A DNA stretch of 32,000 nt from Horticoccus luteus (GTDB taxonomy: Bacteria > Verrucomicrobiota > Verrucomicrobiia > Opitutales > Opitutaceae), in the NCBI RefSeq assembly GCF_019464535.1, contig NZ_CP080507.1, positions 3,330,001 to 3,362,000 on the forward strand, given 5' to 3'. This document shows positions 4,086 to 32,000 of the stretch, piece by piece. Under the pieces are notes generated by a model that did not search any database, had not been told where the DNA came from, and saw only the letters and a program-made list of their open reading frames with translations. Position 1 is the first letter of the stretch. Each line of letters begins with the position of its first letter. Both the position numbers and the translations under genes were made by a program.

Positions 4086-4655
4086 ATGGATTCACTCCAG
4101 CAGGAGGTCTTGGATATTTTCACCCGCACGAGAGCGTTGCTGCGCGGACATTTCGTGCTGCGCTCGGGTTTGCACAGCGGACATTTTTTCCAGTGCGCCC
4201 AAGTCTGCCAGCACATGGATGCGGTTGAGCGCCTGACTGAACTGCTCGTGGGCAAGCTCGCCGGCTTGGAGTTCAGCACGGTCCTCGCTCCGGCGATGGG
4301 CGGTCTCGTGCTCGGACAGGAGGTCGCTCGCCAGACGCGGCGGAGATATATTTTCGCCGAGAAGGAAAACAACGTCCTGGTGCTGCGCCGCGGTTTCACT
4401 TTCGCGCCGGGTGAACGCGTGCTGATCGTCGAGGATGTGGTGACGCGAGGCGGTCGCGTGCTCGAATGCCTCGACATCGTGCGGCGGATGGGCGCCGTGC
4501 CGGCCGGAGTCGCCATGCTGGTCGATCGCAGCGGCGGTGCGTTGCGCCTCGATGTCCCCGCGGTCTCGCTGTTGGAATTAAGCTTCCCCACCTACCCTGC
4601 TGACGCGCTTCCACCCGAGCTGGCGGGCATCCCGGTCGAAAAACCCGGGAGTTGA
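4086..4655 (+). CDS. pyrE: Orotate phosphoribosyltransferase
   Basis: 189 aa. The N-terminus LLRGHFVLRSGLHSGHFFQCAQV and the PRPP-binding loop VLIVEDVVTRGG match the short PyrE type, as in Thermus PyrE. Confidence 0.9.
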   Translation: MDSLQQEVLDIFTRTRALLRGHFVLRSGLHSGHFFQCAQVCQHMDAVERLTELLVGKLAGLEFSTVLAPAMGGLVLGQEVARQTRRRYIFAEKENNVLVLRRGFTFAPGERVLIVEDVVTRGGRVLECLDIVRRMGAVPAGVAMLVDRSGGALRLDVPAVSLLELSFPTYPADALPPELAGIPVEKPGS

Positions 4656-4671
4656 GCCGCACGGATCGGCG

Positions 4672-6090
4672 TTATTTCACCGCCACGGTGACATAACGAA
4701 ACACTCCGCGGAAATAGACGAGGAACAGATTACGGCCCGGGCGAAGGGCCGCTCGGGCAGAGGCCGGATCGTTGATCGCAGTGCGGTTGATCTCCACGAT
4801 GACCACGCCTTCGACCAACCGATCACGGTAGTCGGAATCGGGTGCGATGTTTGTGATGAGCACGCCGCCAATGCGCGGGTTCAACCCGAGCGAGCGTCGC
4901 ACGTCGTCACTCACCGCCGCCACTTTAACGCCGGCGAGCAATTCGTCGGGTTGGTCGTCCAAGATGCCTACGGTCGCATTCAACACATGCTCGACGCCGT
5001 CGCGCATAACTTTGATCTGCACCGGCGCGCCCGGGCGTAGTTGCGCAACGTAAAGGCGCATCTCTTCGACGGAGGTCACCTTGCGATCGTTAATGCCGAC
5101 GATCACGTCCGCCCGTTTGACACCGGCCTTCTGAGCCGGACCGCCCGGCGCGAGATCGGTGACGGCGAGGCCGCGCACATCCTTGGGCAACTTGAACGCT
5201 TCCGCGTTTTCCGGCCCGACAAGCTCAGTGGTCACGCCCAGATTTCCGCGGGTGACTTTTCCCGTTTCGATCAGCGAGGTCATGATCGAAGCCGCTAGAT
5301 TCACGGGAATCGCAAAACCGATGCCGATGTTCGTGTGCGTATTGGAAAAAATCGCGCTGTTAATGCCGATCAAGCGCCCCTTGGCGTCGATCAACGCCCC
5401 TCCGGAATTGCCCGGGTTGATCGCTGCGTCCGTTTGAATGAAGCTCTCGTAGCCGGCGACGTCTTGCAGCAACCCAAGTTTGGTTCGGCCCTTGGCCGAG
5501 ATGATCCCCATCGTCACCGTCTGGCCGACGTCGAGCGGGTTACCGACGGCGAAGACGATGTCGCCGACCCGAAGTTTATCGCTATCGGCCAACGTGACGA
5601 AGGGCAGATCGGCCACGTCGATTTTTATCACCGCAATATCCGTCTTGGGATCGGTGCCGATGACCTTGGCGATAAACTCCCGTCCGTCCGGGAGGAGCAC
5701 CTTGAGTTCGTCCGCGTCAGCCACGACGTGGTTGTTGGTTAAAATATACCCGCCGGCGGACACAATCACGCCTGAGCCCAACCCCTCTTGCTTCGATTCG
5801 CGTTCCGGAACGGCCCCGCCAAAAAACTGCCGGAGAATCGGCGCCATCGGCACTTCCTCGCGGACGATCTTCGTCGAATAGACCGACACCACAGCGCGCT
5901 GCACCGGCTCCACGATATCGGCGTAACTCGTGACCAGCGCCGATTGACCTTCACCGACAGGCGAACGGTCGATCTTGAGCGCCGGCATCGGGTGTGAAAC
6001 ACCCGGCGAAGCTGCGCCGGCGGCCCCGATGCCGGTGGCCGGAACCAAGAGAGCCGACAGGGCGAAAATGAGCGGACGCAACATAGGCAA
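4672..6090 (-). CDS. htrA: Periplasmic Do/HtrA/DegP-family serine endoprotease with two PDZ domains
   Basis: 472 aa with an N-terminal signal peptide. The catalytic motifs TNNHVV (His) and GNSGGAL (Ser) are present. The C-terminal ~200 aa have a PDZ-like character. Confidence 0.9.
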   Translation of the reverse strand: MPMLRPLIFALSALLVPATGIGAAGAASPGVSHPMPALKIDRSPVGEGQSALVTSYADIVEPVQRAVVSVYSTKIVREEVPMAPILRQFFGGAVPERESKQEGLGSGVIVSAGGYILTNNHVVADADELKVLLPDGREFIAKVIGTDPKTDIAVIKIDVADLPFVTLADSDKLRVGDIVFAVGNPLDVGQTVTMGIISAKGRTKLGLLQDVAGYESFIQTDAAINPGNSGGALIDAKGRLIGINSAIFSNTHTNIGIGFAIPVNLAASIMTSLIETGKVTRGNLGVTTELVGPENAEAFKLPKDVRGLAVTDLAPGGPAQKAGVKRADVIVGINDRKVTSVEEMRLYVAQLRPGAPVQIKVMRDGVEHVLNATVGILDDQPDELLAGVKVAAVSDDVRRSLGLNPRIGGVLITNIAPDSDYRDRLVEGVVIVEINRTAINDPASARAALRPGRNLFLVYFRGVFRYVTVAVK

Positions 6091-21631: not shown

Positions 21632-22101
21632 AGACGGTTGCTCTCAAGTTGGCGCTCCGCATTCCGCCGCTTGTGCTCACGTTCCTCGCGGGCGTCGGGG
21701 CATGGGCCATCGCCCAAGCGTTCCCCGCGCTGCGCTTCGAATCGGCGAACCTCACCGTGGTCGCCGCCGGCCTCGGCTTGCTCGGCATCGGTTGCAGCCT
21801 GCTCGGCGTCATTTCCTTTCGCCGCGCGCACACGACCGTGAATCCCATGGACCCGTCTGCCGCTGCGGCGCTCGTGGTTTCAGGCGTCTATCGTTTCACG
21901 CGCAATCCGATGTATCTGGGTTTTCTCTGCCTGCTGCTCGGAGAAATCGCGTGGCTCGGCAGTCCTGTCGCGTTACTCGCCGCGCCCGCGTTGGTGATTT
22001 ACCTGAACCGTTTCCAAATCGCCCCGGAAGAATCCGCTCTACGCGAGCGCTTCGGAACGGAATTCGTCACTTACACCGCGCGCGTGCCGCGCTGGCTCTA
22101 A
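21628..22101 (+). CDS. ICMT/PEMT-family membrane methyltransferase
   Basis: 157 aa with multiple TM helices and the diagnostic-looking GVYRFTRNPMYLG ... E(E)xxL...FG..F..Y motifs. The start overlaps the previous stop as ATGA. Confidence 0.8.
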   Translation: MKTVALKLALRIPPLVLTFLAGVGAWAIAQAFPALRFESANLTVVAAGLGLLGIGCSLLGVISFRRAHTTVNPMDPSAAAALVVSGVYRFTRNPMYLGFLCLLLGEIAWLGSPVALLAAPALVIYLNRFQIAPEESALRERFGTEFVTYTARVPRWL

Positions 22102-22105
22102 TTCC

Positions 22106-22590
22106 ATGGCTATTTCAATTGGCATCAGCTCGGCCCTCGCGGTTGGCGTCTTCGCAAAGTGGTTTGGGTTGGATCGCGACCGCGCATTTTACCCCACGGT
22201 CATGATCGTGATCACATTCCTGCATGTGCTGTTCGCCGCCATCGGGGGCGAGGCAGCGGTTCTCGTCGCCGCCGGCATCGACCTGGGTTTCGCGACCCTC
22301 GCCGCCCTCGGCTTCAAAAACAGCTTCTGGTTCATCGTCACCGCGCTGAACGGACACGACACGCCATCGAGAACGGCGAAGTGCCGATGTGGTGGCCGGG
22401 CGTTTGCTCTGCCTACGACGTGACCGCGGGCATCTGGCTCGGGCTGCAGCTCTATCGTGCCCGGTTGCACGCCCCGAAAGGCCAACCGTGGACCCTTCAC
22501 CTTTTCGAGCGGCGCACGCGATTCTCGCCCAGTCGCTGTAAGATTTCGCGAATGACTCCGTCGACAGGGATGAAACTCAATCACCCATGA
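22106..22590 (+). pseudogene. Small membrane protein gene disrupted by a 5-bp tandem duplication (ACACG ACACG at 22354-22363)
   Basis: Frame A (22106-22423) is hydrophobic and codon-biased up to ...TALNGH. After that, GC3 bias and protein-like sequence (AIENGEVPMWWPGVCSAYDVTAGIWLGLQLY) continue in the frame of ORF 22159-22590. Deleting one ACACG copy joins the two into a single 159-codon ORF (480 nt). Confidence 0.65.
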
Positions 22591-22757
22591 AAACAAATCC
22601 TACCAAATCCACCGTCTCGTCCAATGATTCCTGCAACTGCCAGAACTGCAGCTGCAATTGCACCCCGATCTGCACCTGCGCCACTACCTGCACCTGCGGC
22701 ATGGCCGGTTGCGACTGCCGCGAACCACACGCGCCCTTGAAATCCCGGAAGTCCTGA
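22587..22757 (+). CDS. 56-aa cysteine-rich (CxC-repeat) small protein, metallothionein-like; not in the ORF track
   Basis: The product is MKTNPTKSTVSSNDSCNCQNCSCNCTPICTCATTCTCGMAGCDCREPHAPLKSRKS. It has 11 Cys within residues 16-44, all encoded by TGC, and strong C-ending codon bias. The ATG overlaps the upstream frame's TGA as ATGA, and a strong terminator lies 26 nt downstream. Confidence 0.6.
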   Translation: MKTNPTKSTVSSNDSCNCQNCSCNCTPICTCATTCTCGMAGCDCREPHAPLKSRKS

Positions 22758-22782
22758 ACGATCGAAAGCAAATGCAACCCAA

Positions 22783-22815
22783 CTGAGGCGGTCTTTAAGC
22801 CGCCTCAGTTTCTTC
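22783..22815 (+). terminator. Rho-independent terminator after the Cys-rich ORF
   Basis: CTGAGGCGG-tctttaag-CCGCCTCAG, a 9-bp perfect stem, followed by TTTCTTCGTT. Confidence 0.75.
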
Positions 22816-22834
22816 GTTACCTTCAGTCCTTACC

Positions 22835-23386
22835 ATGGTCGCCGATAAATCGAGTTCACCCTCCGCCAACGAAGTGATCGCCCAACTCGTGGCGCATCGC
22901 CGGGCGTTCAAAGCATTCCTTGCATCCCGCGTCGGCAACGAAGCCGATGCCGAGGATTTGCTGCAGAATGGCCTGGTGAAGGCGTTGAGCCGTGCGGACG
23001 AAATAAAAGACGGCGAGAAAGCGGTGGCGTGGTTCTATCAACTTTTGCGCAACGCGATCATCGATCACGTGCGCAGCCGCCACGCTGCCGCCACACGCGA
23101 CGACCGTTGGGCGGCGGAGACGGCCATCTTGGCCGACGACGTCGAGGTCGACCGCCAGATTTGCGCCTGCGTCGAACGGCTGTTGCCGGCACTCAAGCCG
23201 ATTCACGCCGACCTCATTCGTCGCGTGGAACTGCAAGGAGAGTCGGTGGCTCAGGCCGCAGGCGCTCTCGGGATGACGCCGAACAACGCGAGCGTCACGT
23301 TGCATCGCGCCCGGGAAGAGTTGCGCAGAAAATTCGTGCGTTTCTGTGGCGACTGCCGGTGCCTGAATGTTTGCGACTGCGCCTGA
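22835..23386 (+). CDS. ECF (group IV) sigma-70 factor with a CxC linker motif and a Cys-rich C-terminal tail (CorE-like)
   Basis: 183 aa. The sigma-2 region is DAEDLLQNGLVKAL...AWFYQLLRNAIIDHVR. The sigma-4 region is LIRRVELQGESVAQAAGALGMTPNNASVTLHRAREELRRKF. Cys110-x-Cys112 lies between the two domains, and the terminal sequence is FCGDCRCLNVCDCA (5 Cys in the last 13 residues). No anti-sigma gene is adjacent. Confidence 0.85.
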   Translation: MVADKSSSPSANEVIAQLVAHRRAFKAFLASRVGNEADAEDLLQNGLVKALSRADEIKDGEKAVAWFYQLLRNAIIDHVRSRHAAATRDDRWAAETAILADDVEVDRQICACVERLLPALKPIHADLIRRVELQGESVAQAAGALGMTPNNASVTLHRAREELRRKFVRFCGDCRCLNVCDCA

Positions 23387-23389
23387 TAA

Positions 23390-23993
23390 GCCGAGCACGC
23401 CAAAGACGTCGTTTCTGGAGGACAGGTCCGCCGCACACCTGCCTGTGCTCGGCTCTACGCCGAGGCGTTGGCGGCACGGGGCGCACGCATGATCGGGGTG
23501 GACCCGACCCGGCCGTTGATTGCGGCGGCGCGGGCACCCAAACCTGAAGGCGTGTTTCATGACGGCGGCGGCGAAGCGATGCGCATGCCTGACGCCAGCA
23601 TTGATCTGTTGGTGTGCTATGTGGCGTTGCTGGACATTCCTGATTTTCGTGCGGCGCTCAGGGAAATGACGCGTGTGTTACGGCCCGGCGGGAGGTCCCC
23701 GGAGTCGAATCTCAATGGCTTCACCACGGCCTCGAAACTGCTGTGGCGCGCGATGCCGAGGGCAACAAGCTGCATTGGACCATGGGCAACTCCATGGTCG
23801 AACGCGCCGAACACGCGGAATGGGCAGGCATCCCGCTCACCACCTCGCACCGGCCGTTGTCGTCCTACATGCGGCGTTCCTCGGCGCGGGATTGGTGCTG
23901 GAGCAATTTGAAGAACCCATACCCAGCGCGGAGACCATGGCCGCTCTGCCGGTCATGCTGATTACCCGCGCATGCCCAATTTCTGCGCGATGA
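23390..23993 (+). pseudogene. Class I SAM-dependent methyltransferase remnant (5'-truncated, at least two frameshifts)
   Basis: Recognisable pieces lie in three frames. The first is ...ARGARMIGVDPTRPLIAAAR...DASIDLLVCYVALLDIPDFRAALREMTRVLRPGG...NLNGFTTAS. The second is ARDAEGNKLHW...AEWAGIPLTTSHRPLSSYM (after a shift near 23745). The third is AAFLGAGLVLEQFEEPIP (after a shift near 23868). There is no start codon or intact GxGxG motif upstream. Confidence 0.6.
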
Positions 23994-24409
23994 CGTGGCG
24001 GAAGACCGAGACGACCGAGCCCGCCTGAGGCAGACCAAATCCGTCGTCGACAAACGCGTCTTCCGGAGTGGCCGGTTGGTAATCTGAAGCGTTCACGCGG
24101 TGCCTCTCGGCGCGCCGCTGTGCGCAGTCACCATGAAACGCGGCCGCCTCCCCTTGCTCAAGTCTCCCGCGGCTACACGCCCCGGCCTCCTTTGCTCCAG
24201 ACTGACCGTCCTATGAAAAATCTTCACCGCGCCGCCGAGGTATGCGGAGAACAAAAGCGTTACCATGCGCGACGGTCGCTCGCACGAGACCCTCGATGTG
24301 AGGCGTTGCTGCATCGGCCAGCCAACACGACTCCGCTTCCTTTAAGTCCGATTGGGGCAGTTTGTTGATACGAGTTTCAAATTCGGCCCTACAATTGTCT
24401 GGGTCCCGC

Positions 24410-27400
24410 TCAGGGCTTCCACTTCGTGATCGTTATGGTGGCGGCGGAGGTTTTGGCGGAGGGGTCGAGGAGGACGTCGTAGCCGAAGAGGAGGAGGTTG
24501 CCGTTGGGGACGGAGAGGGAGACGTTGGCGGCGATGGTGAGGGTGCCGTGGTTGTCGCGTTCGAAGTCGGCCATGAGGGCCAGGCGGTTGCCGGAGGACA
24601 GGAGGGAGCCCTGGGTGACGGTGATGTCGCCGTAGGCCGAGAACTCGACGTTGGCCTGGCCGGCGATGGTGCCGATGCCGATCGCGAGGTTGCCGGTCGT
24701 CTGCACCAAGAGCGTGCCTTTGGAGCGCAGGGCGCCTTCGTTGAGGATGATTTCCACGGGCGTGCCGGCGCCGAAGAGCAGGTCGCCGACCTGCAGGGTG
24801 GTGGCGGCGTTCACTTCGGAGAGGGCCTGGATCAGCATGAAGCGGCCCGTGGTGTCGCGGTTGTAGTTGGCGAAGATGCTCACGGCGCCGGCGAGGGAGT
24901 TCACGCGGCCGAAGTTGGCGCCCAGGCCGCCGATGGTGACGTTTTCGCCGCCGAGGACGAGGTCGAGTTGCGCGGTGACGAGCACCGGCGCGGCGGCCCC
25001 CAGGGTGAGGTCGCCCGTGCCGTTGTGGTCGGAGTCCGCGCTCAGGGTGAGCGCGCCGGCGGGCGTTTGCAGGATCGTGCTTTGCAGGGTCACGTTGCCG
25101 GCGGAGGTAAGGCTGATGGCGCCCAGGGCGGTCAGGAGGAGGTTTTGCGCGACCACGTCGGCGGCGCTGCGGACGGTGATCCTGCCCAGGGCCTGCAACT
25201 GGCCGCGGAGGGTCAGCGTGCCGGTGACGGGCGTGGTGCCGCCGGTCGTAATCAAGAGGTCCGTGCCCGCTTTCAACTGGGTGTTATCGTTGGCGAGGGT
25301 CAGCGTGCCCTGGCCGTTGGCGTTCAGGTCGACGGTGAGGGTGATCGCGCCTTGGAGGGCGAGCAGTTCGGCGCGGTTGGTCGCGGTGCCGATCTGGATC
25401 GCTTCGCCTTGGAGGACGATGCCGCCTTGGGCGACTTGCAGGACGCTGACGGCGTTTTGGGCGATGCGGACGGCCCCGTGGTTGTCCCCGTCGGTGTCGG
25501 CGGTGAGGGTCAGCGTGCCGCTAATGCCGATCGTGAGGTTCGCGTCGATGGTGAGGTCGCCGCCGGTGCGGGCCGTGAGGTTGCCTTGGGCGCCGCTCGT
25601 GCGGACCGCGCCGTGCACGGTCAGGGTGCCGGCCGCGGCGGGCGCGGAGAACAGGACCGCGGTGCCGAAGGTGCTTTGATAGACGTCGATCGCATGGGCG
25701 CCGTCGGTGCGGCCGATCTGCACTTCGGTGAAGGCCGCGGGCACGGCGATTTCCGGAGCGAGGAGGTCGAAGCCGCCGGCCTGGCCGACGGTGATCGGTT
25801 GCGTGAGGGAGGCCGGTTGCAGGATCAGGCGGCCGGTGCCGGTGATCGAGCCGGCCGCGCCTTGCAGGTTCAGGAGGTCGGCGGTGATCGTGACGAGGCC
25901 CGTGCCGGCGAGGAGCTTGGCGCCGGTTTCCTGCGTGAAGGCGCCGGTGCCGGGGCCCGCCTGCAGGGTCAGGGGGTTGGCGCCGGTGACGGTGAGGGTC
26001 TGGTTCGCGAGGAGGACGATCGTGCCGGTGGCCTGCGGGGAGCGGATGAGGGTCGGGTTGACCAGGGTCACGGTGCCGAGGTCGATGCGGGCGGAGGAAT
26101 CGGCGCGGCCGAGGACGACCTGGCTGAAGCCGGGCGCCAAGGCTTCGAGGCTCGTCTGGGAGAGGAGGTAGGCGTAGGCGGAGGGGGTGGGCACGTTGCC
26201 CAGGCCGATCGTGGCGACGTTGGTCGCGGGTGCGGCGATGAACTGGCCGTGGTTCAAGGTGTGGATCGAGCCCGGGCCGCCGGTGAGGGTGAGCGAGCCG
26301 GAGCCGAGGACGAGGTCGCCTTGCACGGTCACGGTGGCGGCGAAGGTGAGCGCGCCGGTCGTGGTGATCGTCAGTTGCGTGAGGGGGGTTTGCGCGCCGA
26401 GGGCCTGGGCGAAGGAGACGTCGCCGGAGCCGGCGTCGATCGTCAGGGCGTAGGCGCCGTCGATGGTCTGGTCGAAGGTCACGTCGCCGCCGGAGGTCGT
26501 GATCAGGGTGTCGCGGGGCAGGACCACGTTGCCGGTGAAGTGGAGGTTTTCGCCGTGGGTGACGAGGTCTTCGTCGAGGGTGACCGCGCCGGAGGTGGAG
26601 ATGTTCAGGTCGCCGCCGCCGGCGTGGGCGGTGTCGTATTTGACTTTGCCGGTGCCGATGACGGTCAGGCTGATGTCGCCGGTGCCGCCGGCGTCGACGT
26701 TGACTACATGGAGGTTGCCTTGGTCGAGGCTGAGCGCGATGTCGCCGTCTTGGGTGGTGGCGTCGGTGACGAGGAGCGTGCCGCCGGCCTGGCTGTAGGC
26801 GATGGCACCGGTGCCGGTGGCGAGGTGGGTGACGGTGACGTCGGTCGTGAGGAGGTTGCGCAGGCGGATGTCGCCGGTCGTCGAGGTGGCGGAGAGCGTG
26901 GGGACGGCGACGACGACGGGGTCGAGGGTGCCGATGCCGGTGCCGGCTTGGAGCGTCAAGAGGGCGGCGGTGAACTGGGTGCCGGTCGAGGCGCGTTCGA
27001 GGCGGCCGGCGGCGGTGGCGGTGATCGTGTCGTTCTCGGCGAGGACGGTGCCCACGAGGAGGTCGGCGCCGGCGGTGAGGGTGATGTCCGCGGTGCCGCC
27101 CGCCGTGAGGGCGGTGGCGGTCAGGGTGCCGGCGGTCGTCAGCGTGATCGCGCCGTCGGTCGTGGTCGCGGTGACGGTCAGGTTGCCGGTGTCGGCGAGG
27201 ACCAGGGTGCCGGGGCCGGAGATCGCGGCGTCGAGGGTGCCAAGGGTCGTGTTGAGGTCGTTGGCGGCGGTGCCGAGGGAACCCACGCTGCGGAGCGTGG
27301 CGGCGGCGCCGAGGAGGTTCGGGGCTTCGGTGGCCAGGTTGTCGGTCAGGTCCGCGCCGGTCGTGAGCACCATGGCGCCGGTGCCGGCGTCGATGATCGA

Positions 27401-30400
27401 GACCGCAAGGCGTTGCGCGGCGGTGACGGTGAGCAGGCCGCCGGCGGAGGCGAGGCGCGAACCGGAGTCCATCGTGATGGCGCCGGTGGCGGTGTGCAGC
27501 GTGAGGGTGCCGCCGGTCGTCGCGATCGTCGCGGCGGAGGAGAGCGTGATCGCGGCGGGCGCGTCCAGGAGGATCGGGCCGGTGCCGGAGCGGACGCCGG
27601 CGTTGACTTGGAGATTCGAGGCGGCGCCACCGGGCAGGAGCGTGATCGCACCGGTGCCGGCGGCGGAGAGGGCGAGGCCGTCGGCGTCGGCGCCGTCGTT
27701 GAGCGTGAGGGTGCCGTTGGTTGTGCGCAGCGTGATGGCCCCGTTCGCGGTCGTGGTGAGGTCGGCGAGGGAGGGTTCGGTGACGGTCGTCGTCGTGAAG
27801 TTGGCGTTCACCTTGGCGAGGGCGAAGGTCACCGTGTCGATCGTCAGCGCGGTCGCGTTGAGGATGTTCAGGCCGCCGCTGCCGGCGGTGCCGGCGAGGA
27901 GCGCCGTCGCCAGGGTGAGCGGGGTCGCGGCGGTGCCGGCGCCGGTGCCGGCTTCCAGGCGGACCGCGGTGGCGGTGAGGTTCGCGGCGGCGGTGCCGGC
28001 GGTGTTGTCCAGGATCGAGGCGCCGGAGCGGATCAGGATGCGGCCGGTCGTCGCCCGGACTTGCGCGAGGCGCACGTCGGCGCCGGCGAGGAGGCGGAGG
28101 GAGCCCGCGGTCGTCGTGAGGGTCGAGGTGGCCGCGAGGGTCAGGGCTCCGGTCGTCGCTTCGAGGTCGAGGTCGCCGGCCGTTTGCACGGCCACGGTCG
28201 CGGCGGTGGTGAGGTCATGGCCGGCGAGGAGCGTGATCGCGCCCGTCGCGGAGATGACGTCGGCGTTGAGCAGGAGGTCGCTCGTCGCGCCGCCGGCCGA
28301 GAGGAGGATCCGGCCGGTGCCGGCCGCGCTGACCGCGGTGTGATTGGCGTTGCCCCCGTCGTTCAGGGTCAGCGTGCCGTTGAGGGTGCGCAGCGCGATC
28401 GAGCCGTTCGCGGTGGTCGTGAGGTCGGAGAGGGTTTCGGCGGTGAGTGCGGTGGACGTGAAGTCGGCGGCGACGGCGCGCACGGTGATGCTGACGTTCG
28501 TGATCGTGAGGGCGTTGTCTTCGACGAGGCTGATGCCGGCGGAGCCGGCGCTGGCGGCCAGGGTGTCGAGGCCGACTTCGAGGGGGTTCGTGGACGTGCC
28601 GATACCCGTGCCGGCGACCAGGCGCGCGGCGCTGGCGCTGATGTCTTGATAGGTGTCGCCGCCGTCGAGGATCGAGCCGGCGGTCGCCGTGAGCGTGACT
28701 GAACCCGTGCCGGCTTGGATGCCGCCGAGCGTGATGTCGGTCGCGGCAAGGAGGCGGACGTTGCCGCCCGACGTGGCGATTTGCGCGTTGTCGGCGAAGA
28801 GGATGGCACCCGCGCTGGCCACGAGGTTCACGTCGCCGCCAGTGGTTTTGATGTCGGCGGTCGTGGTGAAGGTGAGGTTCGTCGCGCCGAGGAGTGTGAT
28901 GTCGCCGCTGCCGCTGAGGATGTCCGCGTTCGCGGTGACGTTCGCGGCGGAGAAGTAAACGTTGCCGCTGCCGTTCGCGCTGACCGCCGTGTTGTTGGCG
29001 AAGCCGTCGTTCAGCGTGAGGTCGCCGGCGATAATCGTGAGAGCGATCGAGCCGTTCGCGGTGGTCGTGAGGTCGGAGAGGGTTTCGGCGGTGAGCGCGG
29101 TGGACGTGAAGTCGGCCGCGACGGCGCGCACCGTGACCGACACGTTGGTGATCGTGAGGGCGTTGTCTTCGACGAGGCTGATGCCGGCGCTGCCGGCGCT
29201 GGCGGCGAGCGTGTCGAGGCCGACTTCGAGCGGGTTCGTCGCGGTGCCGATGCCGGTGCCGGCAACCAGGCGGGCGGCGCTGGCGCTGATGTCTTGATAC
29301 GTGTCGCCGCCGTCGAGGATCGAGCCCGCGGTGGCGGTCAGGGTGACGGAGCCGGTGCCGGCTTGGATGCCGCCGAGCGTGATGTCGGTCGCGGCGAGGA
29401 GGCGGACGTTGCCGCCCGACGTGGCGATTTGCGCGTTGTCGGCGAAGTGGATCGCACCCGCGGTGGCCACGAGGTTCACGTCGCCGCCGGTCGTCTTGAT
29501 GTCGGCGGTCGCGTTGAAGGTGAGGTTCGTTGCGCCGAGGAGCGTGATGTCGCCGCTGCCGCTGAGGATGTCCGCGTTCGCGGTGACGTTCGCGGCGGAG
29601 AAGTAAACGTTGCCGCTGCCGTTCGCGCTGACCGCCGTGTTGTTGGCGAAGCCGTCGTTCAGCGTGAGGTCGCCGGCGATAATCGTGAGAGCGATCGAGC
29701 CGTTCGCGGTCGTCGTGAGGTCGGAGAGGGTTTCAGCGGTGAGTGCGGTGGAGGTGAAGTCGGCCGCGACGGCGCGCACGGTGATGCTGACGTTGGTAAT
29801 CGTGAGGGCGTTGTCTTCGAGGAGGCTGATGCCGGCGCTGCCTGCGCTGGCGGCGAGCGTGTCGAGGCCGACTTCGAGCGGGTTCGTCGCGGTGCCGATG
29901 CCGGTGCCGGCAACCAGGCGGGCGGCGGACGCGCTGATGTCTTGATACGTGTCGCCGCCGTCGAGGATCGAGCCCGCGGTCGCAGTCAACGTGACTGAAC
30001 CCGTGCCGGCTTGGATGCCGCCCAAGGTGATGTCGGTCGCGGCGAGGAGGCGGACGTTGCCGCCCGACGTGGCGATTTGCGCGTTGTCGGCGAAGTGGAT
30101 CGCCCCCACCCCGGCCACGAGGTTCACGTCGCCGCCGGTGGTTTTGACGTCGGCGGTCGCGTTGAAGGTGAGGTTCGTCGCGCCGAGGAGTGTGATGTCG
30201 CCGCTGCCGCTGAGGATATCGGCGTTCGCGGTGAGGTTCGCGGCGGAGAAGTAAACATTGCCGGTGCCGTTCGCGCTGACCGCGGTGTTGTTGGCGAAGC
30301 CGTCGTTCAGCGTGAGGTCGCCCGCGATGATCGTGAGGGCGATGGAGCCGTTCGCGGTCGTCGTGAGGTCGGAGAGGGTTTCGGCGGTGAGTGCGGTGGA

Positions 30401-32000
30401 CGTGAAGTCGGCCGCAACGGCGCGCACGGTGACCGACACGTTCGTGATCGTGAGCGCGTTGTCTTCGAGGAGGCTGATGCCGGCGCTGCCTGCGCTGGCG
30501 GCGAGCGTGTCGAGGCCGACTTCGAGCGGGTTGGTCGCGGTGCCGATGCCCGTGCCGGCAACCAGGCGAGCGGCGGACGCGCTGATGTCTTGATAGGTGT
30601 CGCCGCCGTCGAGGATCGAGCCCGCGGTGGCGGTCAAGGTGACGGAACCCGTGCCGGCTTGGATGCCGCCCAAGGTGATGTCGGTCGCGGCGAGCAAGCG
30701 GACGTTGCCGTTGGAGGTCGCGACTTGCGCGTTGTCGGCGAAGTGGATCGCACCGGCGCTGGCGACCAAGTTCACGTCGCCGCCGGTGGTCTTGACGTCG
30801 GCGGTCGTGGTGAACGTGAGGTTCGTGGCACCGAGGAGCGTGATGTCGCCGCTGCCAGAGAGGATGTCGGCGTTCGCGGTGACGTTCGCGGCGGAGAAGT
30901 AAACGTTGCCGGTGCCGTTCGCGCTGACCGCGGTGTTATTCACGAAGCCGTCGTTCAGGGTGAGGTCGCCGGCGATGATCGTCAGGGCGATGGAGCCGTT
31001 CGCCGTCGTCGTGAGGTCGGAGAGGGTTTCGGCGGTGAGTGCGGTGGAGGTGAAGTCGGCCGCGACGGCGCGCACGGTGATGCTGACGTTGGTGATCGTG
31101 AGCGCGTTGTCTTCGACGAGGCTGATGCCGGCGCTGCCGGCGCTGGCGGCCAGGGTGTCGAGGCCGACTTCGAGGGGGTTCGTGGACGTGCCGATGCCGG
31201 TGCCAGCAACGAGGCGCGCGGCGCTGGCACTGATGTCTTGATACGTGTCCCCGCCGTCGAGGATCGAGCCGGCGGTGGCGGTCAACGTCACGGAGCCGGT
31301 GCCGGCTTGGATGCCGCCGAGCGTGATGTCGGTCGCGGCGAGGAGGCGGACGTTGCCGCCCGACGTGGCGATTTGCGCGTTGTCGGCGAAGAGGATCGCG
31401 CCCGCGGTGGCCACGAGGTTCACGTCGCCGCCGGTGGTTTTGACGTCGGCGGTCGCGTTGAAGGTGAGGTTCGTCGCGCCGAGGAGTGTGATGTCGCCGC
31501 TGCCGCTGAGGATGTCGGCGTTCGCGGTGAGGTTCGCGGCGGAGAAGTAAACGTTGCCGCTGCCGTTCGCGTTGACCGCGGTGTTGTTGGCGAAGCCGTC
31601 GTTCAGGGTGAGGTCGCCGGCGATGATCGTCAGGGCGATGGAGCCGTTCGCGGTCGTCGTGAGGTCGGAGAGGGTTTCGGCGGTGAGCACGGCGGACGTG
31701 AAGTCGGCGGCGACGGCGCGCACGGTGACGCTGACGTTGGTGATCGTGAGGGCGTTGTCTTCGAGGAGGCTGATGCCCGCGGAACCGGCGCTGGCGGCCA
31801 GGGTGTCGAGGCCGACTTCGAGCGGGTTCGTCGCGGTGCCGATGCCGGTGCCGGCGACCAGGCGCGCGGCGGACGCGCTGATGTCTTGATACGTGTCGCC
31901 GCCGTCGAGGATCGAGCCCGCGGTCGCAGTCAACGTGACGGAACCGGTGCCGGCTTGGAGGCCGCCCAAGGTGATGTCGGTCGCGGCGAGGAGGCGGACG
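24410..32000 (-). CDS. C-terminal ~2,530 aa of a giant beta-helix repeat exoprotein (filamentous hemagglutinin/adhesin-like); the 5' end lies beyond the window
   Basis: The frame is open from the window edge to the TGA at 24410-24412. The first 'M' in the ORF track is a TTG Leu inside the repeat. Composition is dominated by G/T/A/L/N/S/D with short strand-turn motifs (GGDVNLVATAGAI.., GNVRLLAATDITLGG.., GDLTLNDG..). There are no Cys and almost no charged or aromatic residues, as in secreted beta-helical adhesins. The N-terminal secretion domain is not visible. Confidence 0.9.
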   Translation of the reverse strand, partial: VRLLAATDITLGGLQAGTGSVTLTATAGSILDGGDTYQDISASAARLVAGTGIGTATNPLEVGLDTLAASAGSAGISLLEDNALTITNVSVTVRAVAADFTSAVLTAETLSDLTTTANGSIALTIIAGDLTLNDGFANNTAVNANGSGNVYFSAANLTANADILSGSGDITLLGATNLTFNATADVKTTGGDVNLVATAGAILFADNAQIATSGGNVRLLAATDITLGGIQAGTGSVTLTATAGSILDGGDTYQDISASAARLVAGTGIGTSTNPLEVGLDTLAASAGSAGISLVEDNALTITNVSITVRAVAADFTSTALTAETLSDLTTTANGSIALTIIAGDLTLNDGFVNNTAVSANGTGNVYFSAANVTANADILSGSGDITLLGATNLTFTTTADVKTTGGDVNLVASAGAIHFADNAQVATSNGNVRLLAATDITLGGIQAGTGSVTLTATAGSILDGGDTYQDISASAARLVAGTGIGTATNPLEVGLDTLAASAGSAGISLLEDNALTITNVSVTVRAVAADFTSTALTAETLSDLTTTANGSIALTIIAGDLTLNDGFANNTAVSANGTGNVYFSAANLTANADILSGSGDITLLGATNLTFNATADVKTTGGDVNLVAGVGAIHFADNAQIATSGGNVRLLAATDITLGGIQAGTGSVTLTATAGSILDGGDTYQDISASAARLVAGTGIGTATNPLEVGLDTLAASAGSAGISLLEDNALTITNVSITVRAVAADFTSTALTAETLSDLTTTANGSIALTIIAGDLTLNDGFANNTAVSANGSGNVYFSAANVTANADILSGSGDITLLGATNLTFNATADIKTTGGDVNLVATAGAIHFADNAQIATSGGNVRLLAATDITLGGIQAGTGSVTLTATAGSILDGGDTYQDISASAARLVAGTGIGTATNPLEVGLDTLAASAGSAGISLVEDNALTITNVSVTVRAVAADFTSTALTAETLSDLTTTANGSIALTIIAGDLTLNDGFANNTAVSANGSGNVYFSAANVTANADILSGSGDITLLGATNLTFTTTADIKTTGGDVNLVASAGAILFADNAQIATSGGNVRLLAATDITLGGIQAGTGSVTLTATAGSILDGGDTYQDISASAARLVAGTGIGTSTNPLEVGLDTLAASAGSAGISLVEDNALTITNVSITVRAVAADFTSTALTAETLSDLTTTANGSIALRTLNGTLTLNDGGNANHTAVSAAGTGRILLSAGGATSDLLLNADVISATGAITLLAGHDLTTAATVAVQTAGDLDLEATTGALTLAATSTLTTTAGSLRLLAGADVRLAQVRATTGRILIRSGASILDNTAGTAAANLTATAVRLEAGTGAGTAATPLTLATALLAGTAGSGGLNILNATALTIDTVTFALAKVNANFTTTTVTEPSLADLTTTANGAITLRTTNGTLTLNDGADADGLALSAAGTGAITLLPGGAASNLQVNAGVRSGTGPILLDAPAAITLSSAATIATTGGTLTLHTATGAITMDSGSRLASAGGLLTVTAAQRLAVSIIDAGTGAMVLTTGADLTDNLATEAPNLLGAAATLRSVGSLGTAANDLNTTLGTLDAAISGPGTLVLADTGNLTVTATTTDGAITLTTAGTLTATALTAGGTADITLTAGADLLVGTVLAENDTITATAAGRLERASTGTQFTAALLTLQAGTGIGTLDPVVVAVPTLSATSTTGDIRLRNLLTTDVTVTHLATGTGAIAYSQAGGTLLVTDATTQDGDIALSLDQGNLHVVNVDAGGTGDISLTVIGTGKVKYDTAHAGGGDLNISTSGAVTLDEDLVTHGENLHFTGNVVLPRDTLITTSGGDVTFDQTIDGAYALTIDAGSGDVSFAQALGAQTPLTQLTITTTGALTFAATVTVQGDLVLGSGSLTLTGGPGSIHTLNHGQFIAAPATNVATIGLGNVPTPSAYAYLLSQTSLEALAPGFSQVVLGRADSSARIDLGTVTLVNPTLIRSPQATGTIVLLANQTLTVTGANPLTLQAGPGTGAFTQETGAKLLAGTGLVTITADLLNLQGAAGSITGTGRLILQPASLTQPITVGQAGGFDLLAPEIAVPAAFTEVQIGRTDGAHAIDVYQSTFGTAVLFSAPAAAGTLTVHGAVRTSGAQGNLTARTGGDLTIDANLTIGISGTLTLTADTDGDNHGAVRIAQNAVSVLQVAQGGIVLQGEAIQIGTATNRAELLALQGAITLTVDLNANGQGTLTLANDNTQLKAGTDLLITTGGTTPVTGTLTLRGQLQALGRITVRSAADVVAQNLLLTALGAISLTSAGNVTLQSTILQTPAGALTLSADSDHNGTGDLTLGAAAPVLVTAQLDLVLGGENVTIGGLGANFGRVNSLAGAVSIFANYNRDTTGRFMLIQALSEVNAATTLQVGDLLFGAGTPVEIILNEGALRSKGTLLVQTTGNLAIGIGTIAGQANVEFSAYGDITVTQGSLLSSGNRLALMADFERDNHGTLTIAANVSLSVPNGNLLLFGYDVLLDPSAKTSAATITITKWKP
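28395..32000 (-). repeat. Tandem array of a 648-bp (216-aa) coding repeat, about 5.5 copies in the window and continuing past the edge
   Basis: There is exact 648-nt periodicity. Antisense pseudo-ORFs recur at 28653/29301/29949/30597/31245 and at 28962/29610/30258/30906/31554. Protein units run from GIQAGTGSVTLTATAGSILDGG... to ...GNVRLLAATDITLG, and only about 18 of 216 columns vary. Confidence 0.92.

What the first reader, a model, noticed from the sequence alone, without database searches (positions are those of the whole stretch)
22587..23386. Unannotated CxC-rich 56-aa ORF paired with a CorE-like, cysteine-tailed ECF sigma factor
A 56-codon ORF falls below the ORF-track cutoff. It encodes 11 Cys in 29 residues, arranged as CxC, CxCxC, CxC, CxC and CxC. 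Every Cys uses TGC, the codon bias is strong, and the ORF has its own intrinsic terminator.

Just 78 nt downstream lies an ECF sigma factor with a Cys-x-Cys motif between sigma-2 and sigma-4. Its C-terminus is CGDCRCLNVCDCA, and no anti-sigma gene is nearby.

From memory, Myxococcus xanthus CorE and CorE2 are ECF sigmas regulated directly by Cu or Cd/Zn through a C-terminal Cys-rich domain plus a CxC motif, without an anti-sigma factor. A small CxC peptide resembles Cu(I)/Zn metallothioneins such as the mycobacterial MymT type.

My inference is a self-contained metal sensing and buffering module. The neighbouring FixH/YtkA-like MPQHGHG protein fits a metal theme, but the link is unproven.
Basis: partly seen in the sequence, partly recalled or inferred. 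Interest (0 to 1): 0.7.

Follow-up and report, generated by a model that had tools for sequence, protein, structure and literature searches.

The report
Metallothionein-like peptide with copper-sensing sigma
A tiny gene that no database annotates encodes a peptide with 11 invariant cysteines, and it sits behind the predicted promoter of the neighbouring cysteine-tailed (CorE-like) sigma factor; this is most likely a bacterial metallothionein switched on by its own metal sensor, a pairing not found described in the searched literature.

Summary
The 56-codon ORF (22587-22757), the hairpin terminator and the 183-aa ECF sigma (22835-23386) with a linker CxC and the C-terminus CGDCRCLNVCDCA are all present.

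The peptide is a real, selected gene. Eight distinct Opitutaceae loci, in at least five genomic contexts, keep the same order: promoter, peptide, terminator, sigma. All 11 Cys are invariant while 18 of the other 21 core positions vary (P=3e-6). pN/pS is 0.38 in this frame and about 1 in the other sense frames.

An ECF-type motif, TGTAAGAtt-N13-tCCGTC, lies 24 nt upstream of the peptide start. In relatives the same motif precedes two other Cys-rich peptide types, CopA-type (P1B-1) ATPases in six loci, and the sigma gene itself. Csp copper-storage genes are neighbours in two loci.

The sigma carries the CorE-family hallmarks, although its Cys-rich tail is compacted. No conserved anti-sigma gene accompanies it.

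The best reading is a copper-responsive CorE-like sigma that drives a metallothionein-like buffer peptide, with terminator read-through feeding expression of the sigma itself. Metal binding and metal induction are untested. The peptide matches no protein, Pfam or PDB entry. I rate it a new variant of a known kind, interest about 0.6.

The parts
22537..22562 (+). ECF-type promoter motif, TGTAAGATT (-35-like), 13 nt, TCCGTC (-10-like). It ends 24 nt before the peptide ATG.
   Evidence: It is the only match in the 32-kb window, against 0.12 expected. It is conserved in all type-A loci even where the upstream DNA is unrelated. In relatives the same motif precedes other Cys-rich peptides, P1B ATPases and the sigma gene itself.
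22570..22590 (+). Six-codon upstream ORF (MKLNHP, then stop). It starts about 7 nt after the -10-like element, and its TGA overlaps the peptide ATG (ATGA). It may mark a near-leaderless start with translational coupling.
   Evidence: Read directly from the sequence. An equivalent short ORF ending in ATGA is present in 7 of 8 type-A loci. In type-C relatives the same ATG is in frame with the peptide. Function is inferred only.
22587..22757 (+). Gene for the 56-aa Cys-rich peptide (type A): 11 Cys, no aromatic residue. Putative metallothionein-like metal buffer.
   Evidence: The ORF is present and in frame in 8 distinct loci. All 11 Cys are invariant while 18 of 32 core columns vary, P=2.8e-6. 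pN/pS is 0.38 here and 0.9-1.1 in the other sense frames. Pairwise dN/dS is 0.13-0.31.
22781..22820 (+). Intrinsic-terminator-like hairpin (22781..22810) plus T-rich tail, between the peptide and sigma genes. Proposed to be a leaky terminator.
   Evidence: Found by the scan. Folding z-score is -5.1. It is conserved in all 8 loci, with 95% of cells paired and 2 pairs showing compensatory changes.
22835..23386 (+). Gene for the CorE-like ECF sigma factor (183 aa).
   Evidence: Pfam Sigma70_r2 and Sigma70_r4_2. The best NCBIfam model is SigZ, an ECF238 member according to PMC7826278, although below its cut-off. The family has 690 relatives; those that carry a source organism name are from Opitutaceae or Opitutus.
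23162..23170 (+). Codons for the linker CxC motif (C110-A-C112).
   Evidence: Both Cys are invariant in 25 relatives. The equivalent CxC is essential in CorE and CorE2 (PMC4937300).
23345..23380 (+). Codons for the C-terminal Cys-rich tail: C171-x2-C174-x-C176-x3-C180-x-C182.
   Evidence: All five Cys are invariant. The scheme is Cx2C...CxC as in the CorE family, but the gap between the two pairs is 5 residues instead of 7.

Best explanation
This is a metal, most likely copper, sensing and buffering cassette of an Opitutaceae (Verrucomicrobiota) bacterium.

1. The 183-aa ECF sigma is a CorE-like sensor. The linker CxC and the five-Cys C-terminal tail bind the metal and switch the sigma into an active form, with no anti-sigma factor. 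This step is inferred by homology with CorE and CorE2.
2. RNA polymerase carrying the active sigma recognises the TGTAAGAtt-N13-tCCGTC promoter 24 nt upstream of the peptide gene. This step is inferred from comparative genomics.
3. The transcript encodes a 56-aa peptide with 11 Cys and no aromatic residue, which binds the metal in thiolate clusters as a metallothionein does. This step is inferred from composition and from the pattern of selection.
4. Most transcripts stop at the conserved hairpin and T-run. A fraction reads through into the sigma gene, giving much peptide, little sigma, and positive autoregulation. This step is inferred.
5. By lowering free metal, the peptide returns the sensor to its resting state, which is negative feedback. 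This step is inferred.

In relatives the same promoter also drives CopA-type Cu(I) exporters, so buffering and export belong to one regulon.
For: Shown by tool results:

- The anatomy is as described.
- The seven sigma Cys are invariant in 25 relatives.
- More distant members have the CorE spacings. L092 and L093 have Cx2C-x4-C-x2-CxC with a CQC linker, and Bradyrhizobium L016-L018 have Cx2C-x7-CxC with a CEC linker.
- The order promoter, peptide, hairpin, sigma recurs in 8 distinct loci whose sigma is 70-92% identical, in at least 5 different neighbourhoods.
- Selection acts on the peptide frame and is concentrated on Cys. pN/pS is 0.38 against about 1 in the other sense frames, and all 11 Cys columns are invariant among 18 variable columns, P=2.8e-6.
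- The motif is tied to this sigma family. It occurs once in the window against 0.12 expected. Only 3 PWM hits fell in 1.58 million scanned positions of non-family loci. New hits outside the training set appeared in L005, L014, L164, L165 and L166.
- The motif precedes three kinds of gene: the sigma itself in L087 and L166; Cys-rich peptides of types B and C; and P1B ATPases in L005, L007, L010, L013, L014 and L166.
- Those ATPases carry CPC, N..YN and MSLSS. From my own knowledge of the Arguello classification, this is the Cu(I)/Ag(I) P1B-1 signature.
- Csp/DUF326 copper-storage genes flank the sigma in L006 and L166, and RND plus OEP efflux genes flank it in L005, L014, L085 and L086.
- CorE itself controls CopA, CopB and CuoB and partly controls its own expression (PMC4937300).
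- Type-B peptides have strong AAGGAG ribosome-binding sites.
Against: - There is no direct evidence of transcription, translation, metal binding or metal induction.
- Type-A genes lack an obvious Shine-Dalgarno sequence.
- The peptide is absent from every protein database searched and matches no metallothionein family.
- Many close sigma relatives show neither the peptide nor the motif in the DNA available: L002-L004, L009, L012, L084, L085 and L088-L091. The pairing is therefore clade-specific.
- The Cys-rich tail is shorter and differently spaced than in CorE and CorE2. No direct alignment to those two proteins could be made.
- A perfect 10-12-bp hairpin with a T-run may block read-through, which would leave sigma expression unexplained.
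- No exporter behind the motif lies within this window, so copper specificity is extrapolated from relatives.
- The AlphaFold model gave no information on the tail, where pLDDT is below 50.
Confidence: 0.6

Rival explanations
1. The peptide is mainly a regulatory partner of the sigma. It could be a small metal-dependent anti-sigma or pro-sigma factor, or a chaperone that hands metal to the Cys-rich tail or withholds it. Bulk metal buffering would then be secondary.
For: The sigma gene is the only partner conserved with the peptide across at least 5 genomic contexts. The related type-C peptides sit directly downstream of the sigma gene, where anti-sigma genes usually lie, and carry only 4-6 Cys plus a conserved amphipathic helix YNALLALALWDFGR. 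That looks more like a protein-binding element than a buffer. All three peptide types share the core CxCxxCxC-x4/5-CxC.
Against: Type A has no helix-forming segment, and almost every non-Cys position varies freely. That fits a metal cluster better than a protein interface. Characterised CorE and CorE2 need no protein partner of this kind (PMC4937300, PMC8999054). Placing the peptide before a terminator implies a large excess over sigma, which suits a buffer.
Confidence: 0.15
2. The module responds to thiol, redox or electrophile stress and not to a metal. The Cys-rich peptide would act as a sacrificial thiol buffer and the sigma Cys residues as a redox switch.
For: Cys clusters can sense oxidation as well as metals. 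The CorE paper notes that thiol modification may matter for its switch (PMC3107203). No metal gene behind the motif lies in this window.
Against: In relatives the regulon consists of P1B-1 ATPases with His-rich or HMBD N-termini, with Csp and RND/OEP genes as neighbours. No thioredoxin, peroxiredoxin or similar gene was seen behind the motif.
Confidence: 0.08
3. The ORF is a Cys-codon-rich leader peptide of a transcription attenuator. Ribosome stalling when charged tRNA-Cys is scarce would prevent terminator formation and so raise sigma expression.
For: A short ORF enriched in one codon, followed by a terminator and then the regulated gene, is the classical attenuator layout.
Against: The distance from the stop codon to the hairpin is not fixed: about 23 nt in the window, 36 in L083 and 51 in L082. 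No alternative antiterminator pairing appears in the fold, and the terminator stays intact. The exact Cys spacing is conserved, not merely the Cys count. Homologous type-B and type-C peptides are stand-alone genes, downstream of or divergent from the sigma gene, with their own promoter and ribosome-binding site.
Confidence: 0.05
4. The peptide is the precursor of a modified or exported product, such as a thioether- or radical-SAM-modified peptide or a chalkophore-like compound.
For: Small Cys-rich ORFs are typical precursors of such products.
Against: No modifying enzyme, protease or transporter gene is conserved next to the peptide in any of the 8 loci, and the neighbourhoods differ completely. 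The peptide has no signal or leader-like sequence.
Confidence: 0.03

Closest known systems
CorE and CorE2 of Myxococcus xanthus (ECF44, now placed in ECF238)
   Same: [quoted passage not shown] P1B ATPases are among the targets in relatives, and the gene appears partly autoregulated. Verrucomicrobial members (Opitutus terrae, V. spinosum) were already listed in the CorE paper.
   Different: The tail here is only about 13 residues with 5 Cys (Cx2C-x-C-x3-CxC), against 38 residues in CorE and 28 in CorE2, each with 6 Cys. The sigma gene lies behind a peptide gene and a terminator. In the literature searched, no Cys-rich peptide target is described for CorE or CorE2. The metal response here is untested.
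MymT, the Cu(I) metallothionein of Mycobacterium tuberculosis
   Same: Both are small (53 and 56 aa), cytosolic, Cys-rich bacterial peptides. MymT is needed for copper detoxification (PMC7387436). From my own knowledge, MymT is induced by copper through a dedicated sensor.
   Different: No sequence similarity was detected. The Cys pattern differs: MymT mixes Cys with His, from my own knowledge, whereas this peptide is made of CxC units. The regulator here is a sigma factor and not a repressor.
SmtA/BmtA metallothioneins with the SmtB repressor (cyanobacteria, Pseudomonas)
   Same: A metallothionein gene sits next to the gene of its own metal sensor (PMC7387436).
   Different: SmtA has a zinc-finger-like fold with 9 Cys plus His and binds zinc. 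Its regulator is an ArsR-family repressor transcribed divergently. The peptide gives no Pfam match to that family.
Eukaryotic metallothioneins (mammalian alpha-domain, fungal Cu-metallothioneins)
   Same: The composition is the same: repeated CxC units, no aromatic residues, and variable residues between invariant Cys. From my own knowledge, the mammalian alpha-domain also has 11 Cys.
   Different: There is no detectable homology, so the likeness is convergent in composition. The peptide is bacterial and controlled by a sigma factor.
Csp copper-storage proteins (PF03860/DUF326)
   Same: They are cytosolic Cys-rich copper stores, and their genes lie next to sigma genes of this family in L006 and L166.
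   Different: Csp proteins are four-helix bundles of 120-140 aa and are unrelated in sequence. They appear to be an alternative partner in other clades and not the same protein.

Membership tests
CorE-like ECF sigma factors (ECF44 / ECF238) | [quoted passage not shown] | tested here: met
   Pfam Sigma70_r2 (residues 20-82) and Sigma70_r4_2 (112-163) in a 183-aa protein. PDB profile hits are all ECF sigmas.
CorE-like ECF sigma factors (ECF44 / ECF238) | C-terminal Cys-rich domain with the four family-invariant Cys (Cx2C ... CxC) | tested here: met
   C171-x2-C174 and C180-x-C182, plus C176, are all invariant in 25 relatives. The gap between the two pairs is 5 residues instead of the 7 in CorE, so this is a compacted variant.
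CorE-like ECF sigma factors (ECF44 / ECF238) | [quoted passage not shown] | tested here: met
   C110-A-C112 is invariant. CorE2 has C108/C110 and CorE has C120/C122.
CorE-like ECF sigma factors (ECF44 / ECF238) | No cognate anti-sigma factor gene | tested here: met
   No anti-sigma domain was found in flanking ORFs. The only neighbour conserved across 8 loci is the Cys-rich peptide. A regulatory role for that peptide is not excluded.
CorE-like ECF sigma factors (ECF44 / ECF238) | Sequence relationship to characterised members (CorE, CorE2, SigZ) | tested here: inconclusive
   The best NCBIfam model is SigZ at 90 bits, below its cut-offs of 169 and 212. The sigma is 35% identical to Bradyrhizobium sigmas that carry the canonical CorE tail. 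The ECF Hub HMMs were not available.
CorE-like ECF sigma factors (ECF44 / ECF238) | Metal-dependent activity | not testable with these tools
   This needs reporter or in-vitro transcription assays with Cu, Zn or Cd.
Metallothionein (functional class) | Low molecular weight, high Cys content in CxC/CxxC motifs, and few or no aromatic residues | tested here: met
   56 aa, 11 Cys (20%), five CxC-type units, no Phe, Tyr or Trp, and one His.
Metallothionein (functional class) | Evolutionary constraint concentrated on the Cys ligands | tested here: met
   All 11 Cys columns are invariant while 18 of the other 21 core columns vary, P=2.8e-6.
Metallothionein (functional class) | Binds metal ions in thiolate clusters and is induced by metal | not testable with these tools
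   Only indirect evidence exists: the gene shares its promoter motif with Cu(I)-ATPase genes in relatives.
Known metallothionein sequence families (Pfam families, including the bacterial SmtA type; MymT) | Significant sequence match to the family model or its members | tested here: not met
   No Pfam or NCBIfam hit at E up to 0.1. There were 0 hits among 1.84 billion representative proteins and no PDB relative.
Leader-peptide transcription attenuator | Fixed spacing between the leader stop and the terminator, and an alternative antiterminator structure | tested here: not met
   The spacing varies from 23 to 51 nt. No competing structure appears in the fold.

The most novel reading that the evidence does not exclude
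The type-A peptide founds a previously unrecognised family of bacterial metallothioneins. It is invisible to gene callers and absent from 5.8 billion clustered proteins. It would be the first metallothionein known to be transcribed by a metal-sensing ECF sigma factor. It is wired as a compact unit of promoter, buffer gene, leaky terminator and sensor gene, in which the buffer's Cys clusters compete with the sensor's own Cys tail for metal and so set the response threshold. The type-B and type-C peptides would then be sister families with the same CxCxxCxC-x4/5-CxC core. Type C may have evolved into a protein-binding regulator.
Probability: 0.4. Interest if true: 0.75.

Novelty: new variant of a known kind. 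Interest (0 to 1): 0.62.

Why it matters
Only a few bacterial metallothioneins have a studied function, mainly SmtA and MymT (PMC7387436). None is reported under sigma-factor control in the literature searched.

This locus would add a new family of short, easily synthesised peptides. It would give CorE-like sigma factors of Verrucomicrobia a predicted promoter and regulon. It would also offer a compact, testable sensor-and-buffer circuit, which could serve as a metal biosensor or bioremediation part.

The case also illustrates that strongly selected genes under 60 codons are systematically missed. The type-A and type-B peptides occur in no protein database searched.

Tried and rejected
- **Database searches for the peptide.** The exact-sequence look-up found nothing. 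The word-indexed homology search found nothing. The full phmmer search against 1.84 billion representatives gave 0 hits. Pfam and NCBIfam gave none. The PDB gave only a chance EGF-like match at E=1.5. tblastn against plasmids gave no match. The peptide was found only by six-frame scanning of loci fetched through the sigma gene.
- **Profile search with the peptide alignment.** It returned only type-C proteins.
- **AlphaFold model of the sigma.** The core helices are confident, but the Cys tail has pLDDT below 50, so nothing can be said about a joint CxC-and-tail metal site.
- **First hairpin count.** The dot-bracket string was mis-registered by two columns. It was repeated correctly.
- **Supplementary alignments.** Those of the CorE2 paper and of the ECF classification paper are not held. 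No direct residue-by-residue mapping onto CorE or CorE2 was possible, and the published ECF238 promoter logo could not be compared.
- **Explanations considered and rejected or ranked low.** These were a leader-peptide attenuator (variable spacing, no antiterminator), a modified-peptide precursor (no conserved enzymes), and a chance ORF in GC-rich DNA (frame-specific selection).
- **Link to the YtkA and di-haem peroxidase genes.** It was rejected for lack of the motif and lack of conserved linkage.
Full report
**Observation.** The ORF at 22587..22757 (+) encodes MKTNPTKSTVSSNDSCNCQNCSCNCTPICTCATTCTCGMAGCDCREPHAPLKSRKS. It has 11 Cys within 29 residues, all TGC, and no aromatic residue. A 12-bp GC-rich hairpin at 22781..22810 with a T-rich tail is the only terminator-like site in 22000..24000. 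It folds far better than shuffled sequence (-23.8 kcal/mol, z = -5.1). The sigma gene begins 77 nt after the peptide stop, at 22835..23386. Its 183-aa product has Pfam Sigma70_r2 and Sigma70_r4_2, a C110-A-C112 motif and the C-terminus FCGDCRCLNVCDCA. Using TGC for every Cys is unremarkable at 63% G+C.

**The sigma factor.** Its best NCBIfam model is SigZ, although below the curated cut-off. The 2021 ECF reclassification places SigZ with CorE2 in ECF238, a group defined by a short Cys-rich C-terminal extension (PMC7826278). The family has 690 detectable relatives, and those that carry a source organism name are from Opitutaceae or Opitutus. In an alignment of 25 relatives with 66-92% identity, all seven Cys are invariant.

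The CorE papers define the family by three features. The first is a C-terminal Cys-rich domain with four invariant Cys, which are C181, C184, C192 and C194 in CorE, giving Cx2C-x7-CxC. The second is an essential CxC in the linker. The third is the absence of an anti-sigma factor. Those papers already list Opitutus terrae and Verrucomicrobium spinosum proteins as members (PMC3107203 and PMC4937300).

The window protein has Cx2C-x-C-x3-CxC, a compacted version. More distant relatives fetched here have the canonical spacings. L092 and L093 (40-45% identity) have Cx2C-x4-C-x2-CxC, and Bradyrhizobium L016-L018 (35%) have Cx2C-x7-CxC. Each of these also has a linker CxC. I could not align directly to CorE or CorE2, because their sequences and the supplementary alignments were unavailable. 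An AlphaFold model was confident for the helical core and uninformative for the tail. No solved structure of this subfamily exists.

**The peptide is a real gene.** It is absent from every protein resource searched. I therefore fetched DNA around sigma homologues and scanned all six frames. Eight distinct loci carry an orthologous ORF immediately upstream of the sigma gene: the window, L162, L163, L082, L083, L164, L165 and L167. Their sigma identity to the window ranges from 70 to 92%. They lie in at least five unrelated neighbourhoods, so the peptide gene and the sigma gene travel together as a unit.

Across 32 core codons, 18 columns vary, yet all 11 Cys columns are invariant (P = 2.8e-6). 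Several TGC-to-TGT synonymous changes occur. Pooled pN/pS is 0.38 in the peptide frame, 0.9-1.1 in the other two sense frames and 0.5-1.0 in the antisense frames. Pairwise dN/dS is 0.13-0.31. Constraint that falls almost entirely on Cys, with the residues in between free to vary, is the evolutionary signature of a metal-thiolate cluster protein.

**Promoter and regulon.** In all type-A loci the sequence TGTAAGAtt-N13-tCCGTC ends 24 nt before the ATG. It persists where the DNA further upstream is unrelated. It has the layout of an ECF promoter, with a -35-like element, a spacer of about 16 nt and a CGTC -10-like element. It occurs once in the window against 0.12 expected. A position weight matrix found 3 hits in 1.58 million scanned positions of non-family loci. 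It also found new hits, outside the training set, beside sigma genes in L005 and L014, and later in L164-L166.

In relatives the motif precedes several kinds of gene:

- The sigma gene itself, in L087 and L166.
- A second Cys-rich peptide type (type B) in L092 and L093. These have 11-12 Cys and strong AAGGAG ribosome-binding sites, and lie downstream of or divergent from the sigma gene.
- A third type (type C) just downstream of the sigma gene in L008, L010, L011, L013 and L015. It reads CGCxxCxC...CRCH followed by YNALLALALWDFGR. It corresponds to 44 database proteins, none carrying any functional name (the few that are named at all are called hypothetical).
- P1B ATPases in L005, L007, L010, L013, L014 and L166.
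- A 122-aa secreted protein in L166, also present in L086.

The three peptide types share the core CxCxxCxC-x4/5-CxC. The ATPases carry CPC, N..YN and MSLSS, which to my knowledge is the Cu(I)/Ag(I) P1B-1 signature. Several have His-rich or HMBD N-termini. Csp/DUF326 copper-storage genes flank the sigma gene in L006 and L166, and RND plus outer-membrane efflux genes flank it in L005, L014, L085 and L086. CorE itself controls CopA, CopB and CuoB and partly controls its own expression. The comparative picture is therefore a CorE-type copper regulon to which this clade has added a Cys-rich peptide.

**Terminator.** The hairpin is present in all eight loci, with 95% of cells paired. Two pairs show compensatory changes, and a T-run follows. 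No conserved promoter-like sequence lies between the hairpin and the sigma start. In this clade the simplest reading is read-through. Most transcripts would end after the peptide gene, and a minority would continue into the sigma gene. This step is inference.

**Mechanism proposed.** Metal binds the CxC and the Cys tail of the sigma, which becomes active. It transcribes from the motif. The peptide is made in excess and sequesters metal, with some read-through amplifying the sigma. Falling free metal then resets the sensor. Copper is the most likely metal, given the exporters and Csp neighbours in relatives. However, a single Cys change can switch a CorE-type sensor between Cd and Cu, so zinc or cadmium cannot be excluded.

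**Rivals.**

- A regulatory-partner role for the peptide is the most serious rival. The helix-bearing type-C relatives, which sit in the usual anti-sigma position, suggest it. The freely varying non-Cys residues of type A argue against it.
- A thiol or redox role is possible, but the regulon in relatives is about metals.
- A Cys-codon attenuator is unlikely. The distance from stop to hairpin varies from 23 to 51 nt, no antiterminator is predicted, and homologous peptides are stand-alone genes.
- A modified-peptide precursor is unlikely, because no enzyme gene is conserved nearby.

**What is known and what is new.** CorE-like sigmas, including verrucomicrobial ones, are known. Bacterial metallothioneins paired with a dedicated sensor are known (smtA-smtB; MymT). 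Three things are new:

- the peptide family itself, which is unannotated and unrelated in sequence to known metallothioneins;
- its control by an ECF sigma factor;
- the conserved order of promoter, peptide, terminator and sigma.

I found no paper connecting a metallothionein to a CorE-like sigma. I classify the finding as a new variant of a known kind. All functional steps remain to be tested.

**Limits.** The pairing is clade-specific. Many close sigma relatives show neither the peptide nor the motif within the DNA available. There is no exporter behind the motif in this window.

Noticed in passing
window 22106..22590: The gene just upstream encodes a small membrane protein of 134-135 aa in L162 and L163, with a weak MerC-like Pfam hit (E=0.011). 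In this window it carries a 22-nt deletion that removes the GLFDLVHPH segment and shifts the frame. It looks like a pseudogene here.
   Followed up: yes
window 22570..22590: A six-codon upstream ORF (MKLNHP) starts about 7 nt after the -10-like element and ends in a TGA overlapping the peptide ATG (ATGA). An equivalent short ORF is present in 7 of 8 type-A loci. In type-C relatives the same ATG is in frame (MKPTHPM...). This suggests a near-leaderless transcript with translational coupling.
   Followed up: partly
L008, L010, L011, L013, L015 (about 4590-4790); proteins P0121-P0164: This is a separate conserved family of 43-94-aa proteins without functional annotation. The sequence reads CGCxxCxCxRGPRCRCH followed by the amphipathic helix YNALLALALWDFGR and a basic tail. 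The genes lie directly downstream of CorE-like sigma genes, behind the same promoter motif. The family may be a small regulator or metal-binding partner.
   Followed up: partly
L166 6591..6959; L086 3605..3814: A secreted protein of about 122 aa with no detected family match (Pfam gave none for the L086 copy; a signal peptide, then ETFRLDRLAIVRF...) also lies behind the motif, between the sigma gene and the P1B ATPase gene.
   Followed up: no
L166 5728..6000: In this relative the motif lies about 270 nt upstream of the sigma gene. The leader contains a small ORF beginning MHHHHSTSGACH, and a Csp copper-storage gene lies immediately upstream.
   Followed up: no
The pair is syntenic in L163, has no promoter motif, and is not linked to the module in other contexts.
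   Followed up: partly
window 24410..31969 (-): A 2519-aa ORF is built of long, near-identical tandem repeats of about 190 aa, rich in T, A, G and L, and resembles an adhesin or autotransporter. The opposite strand carries a long spurious ORF.
   Followed up: no
window 23468..23993: A class-I methyltransferase domain (Methyltransf_11) lies downstream of the sigma gene. It appears fragmentary: the N-terminal part is missing and overlapping ORFs in other frames continue it. This suggests a decayed gene.
   Followed up: no
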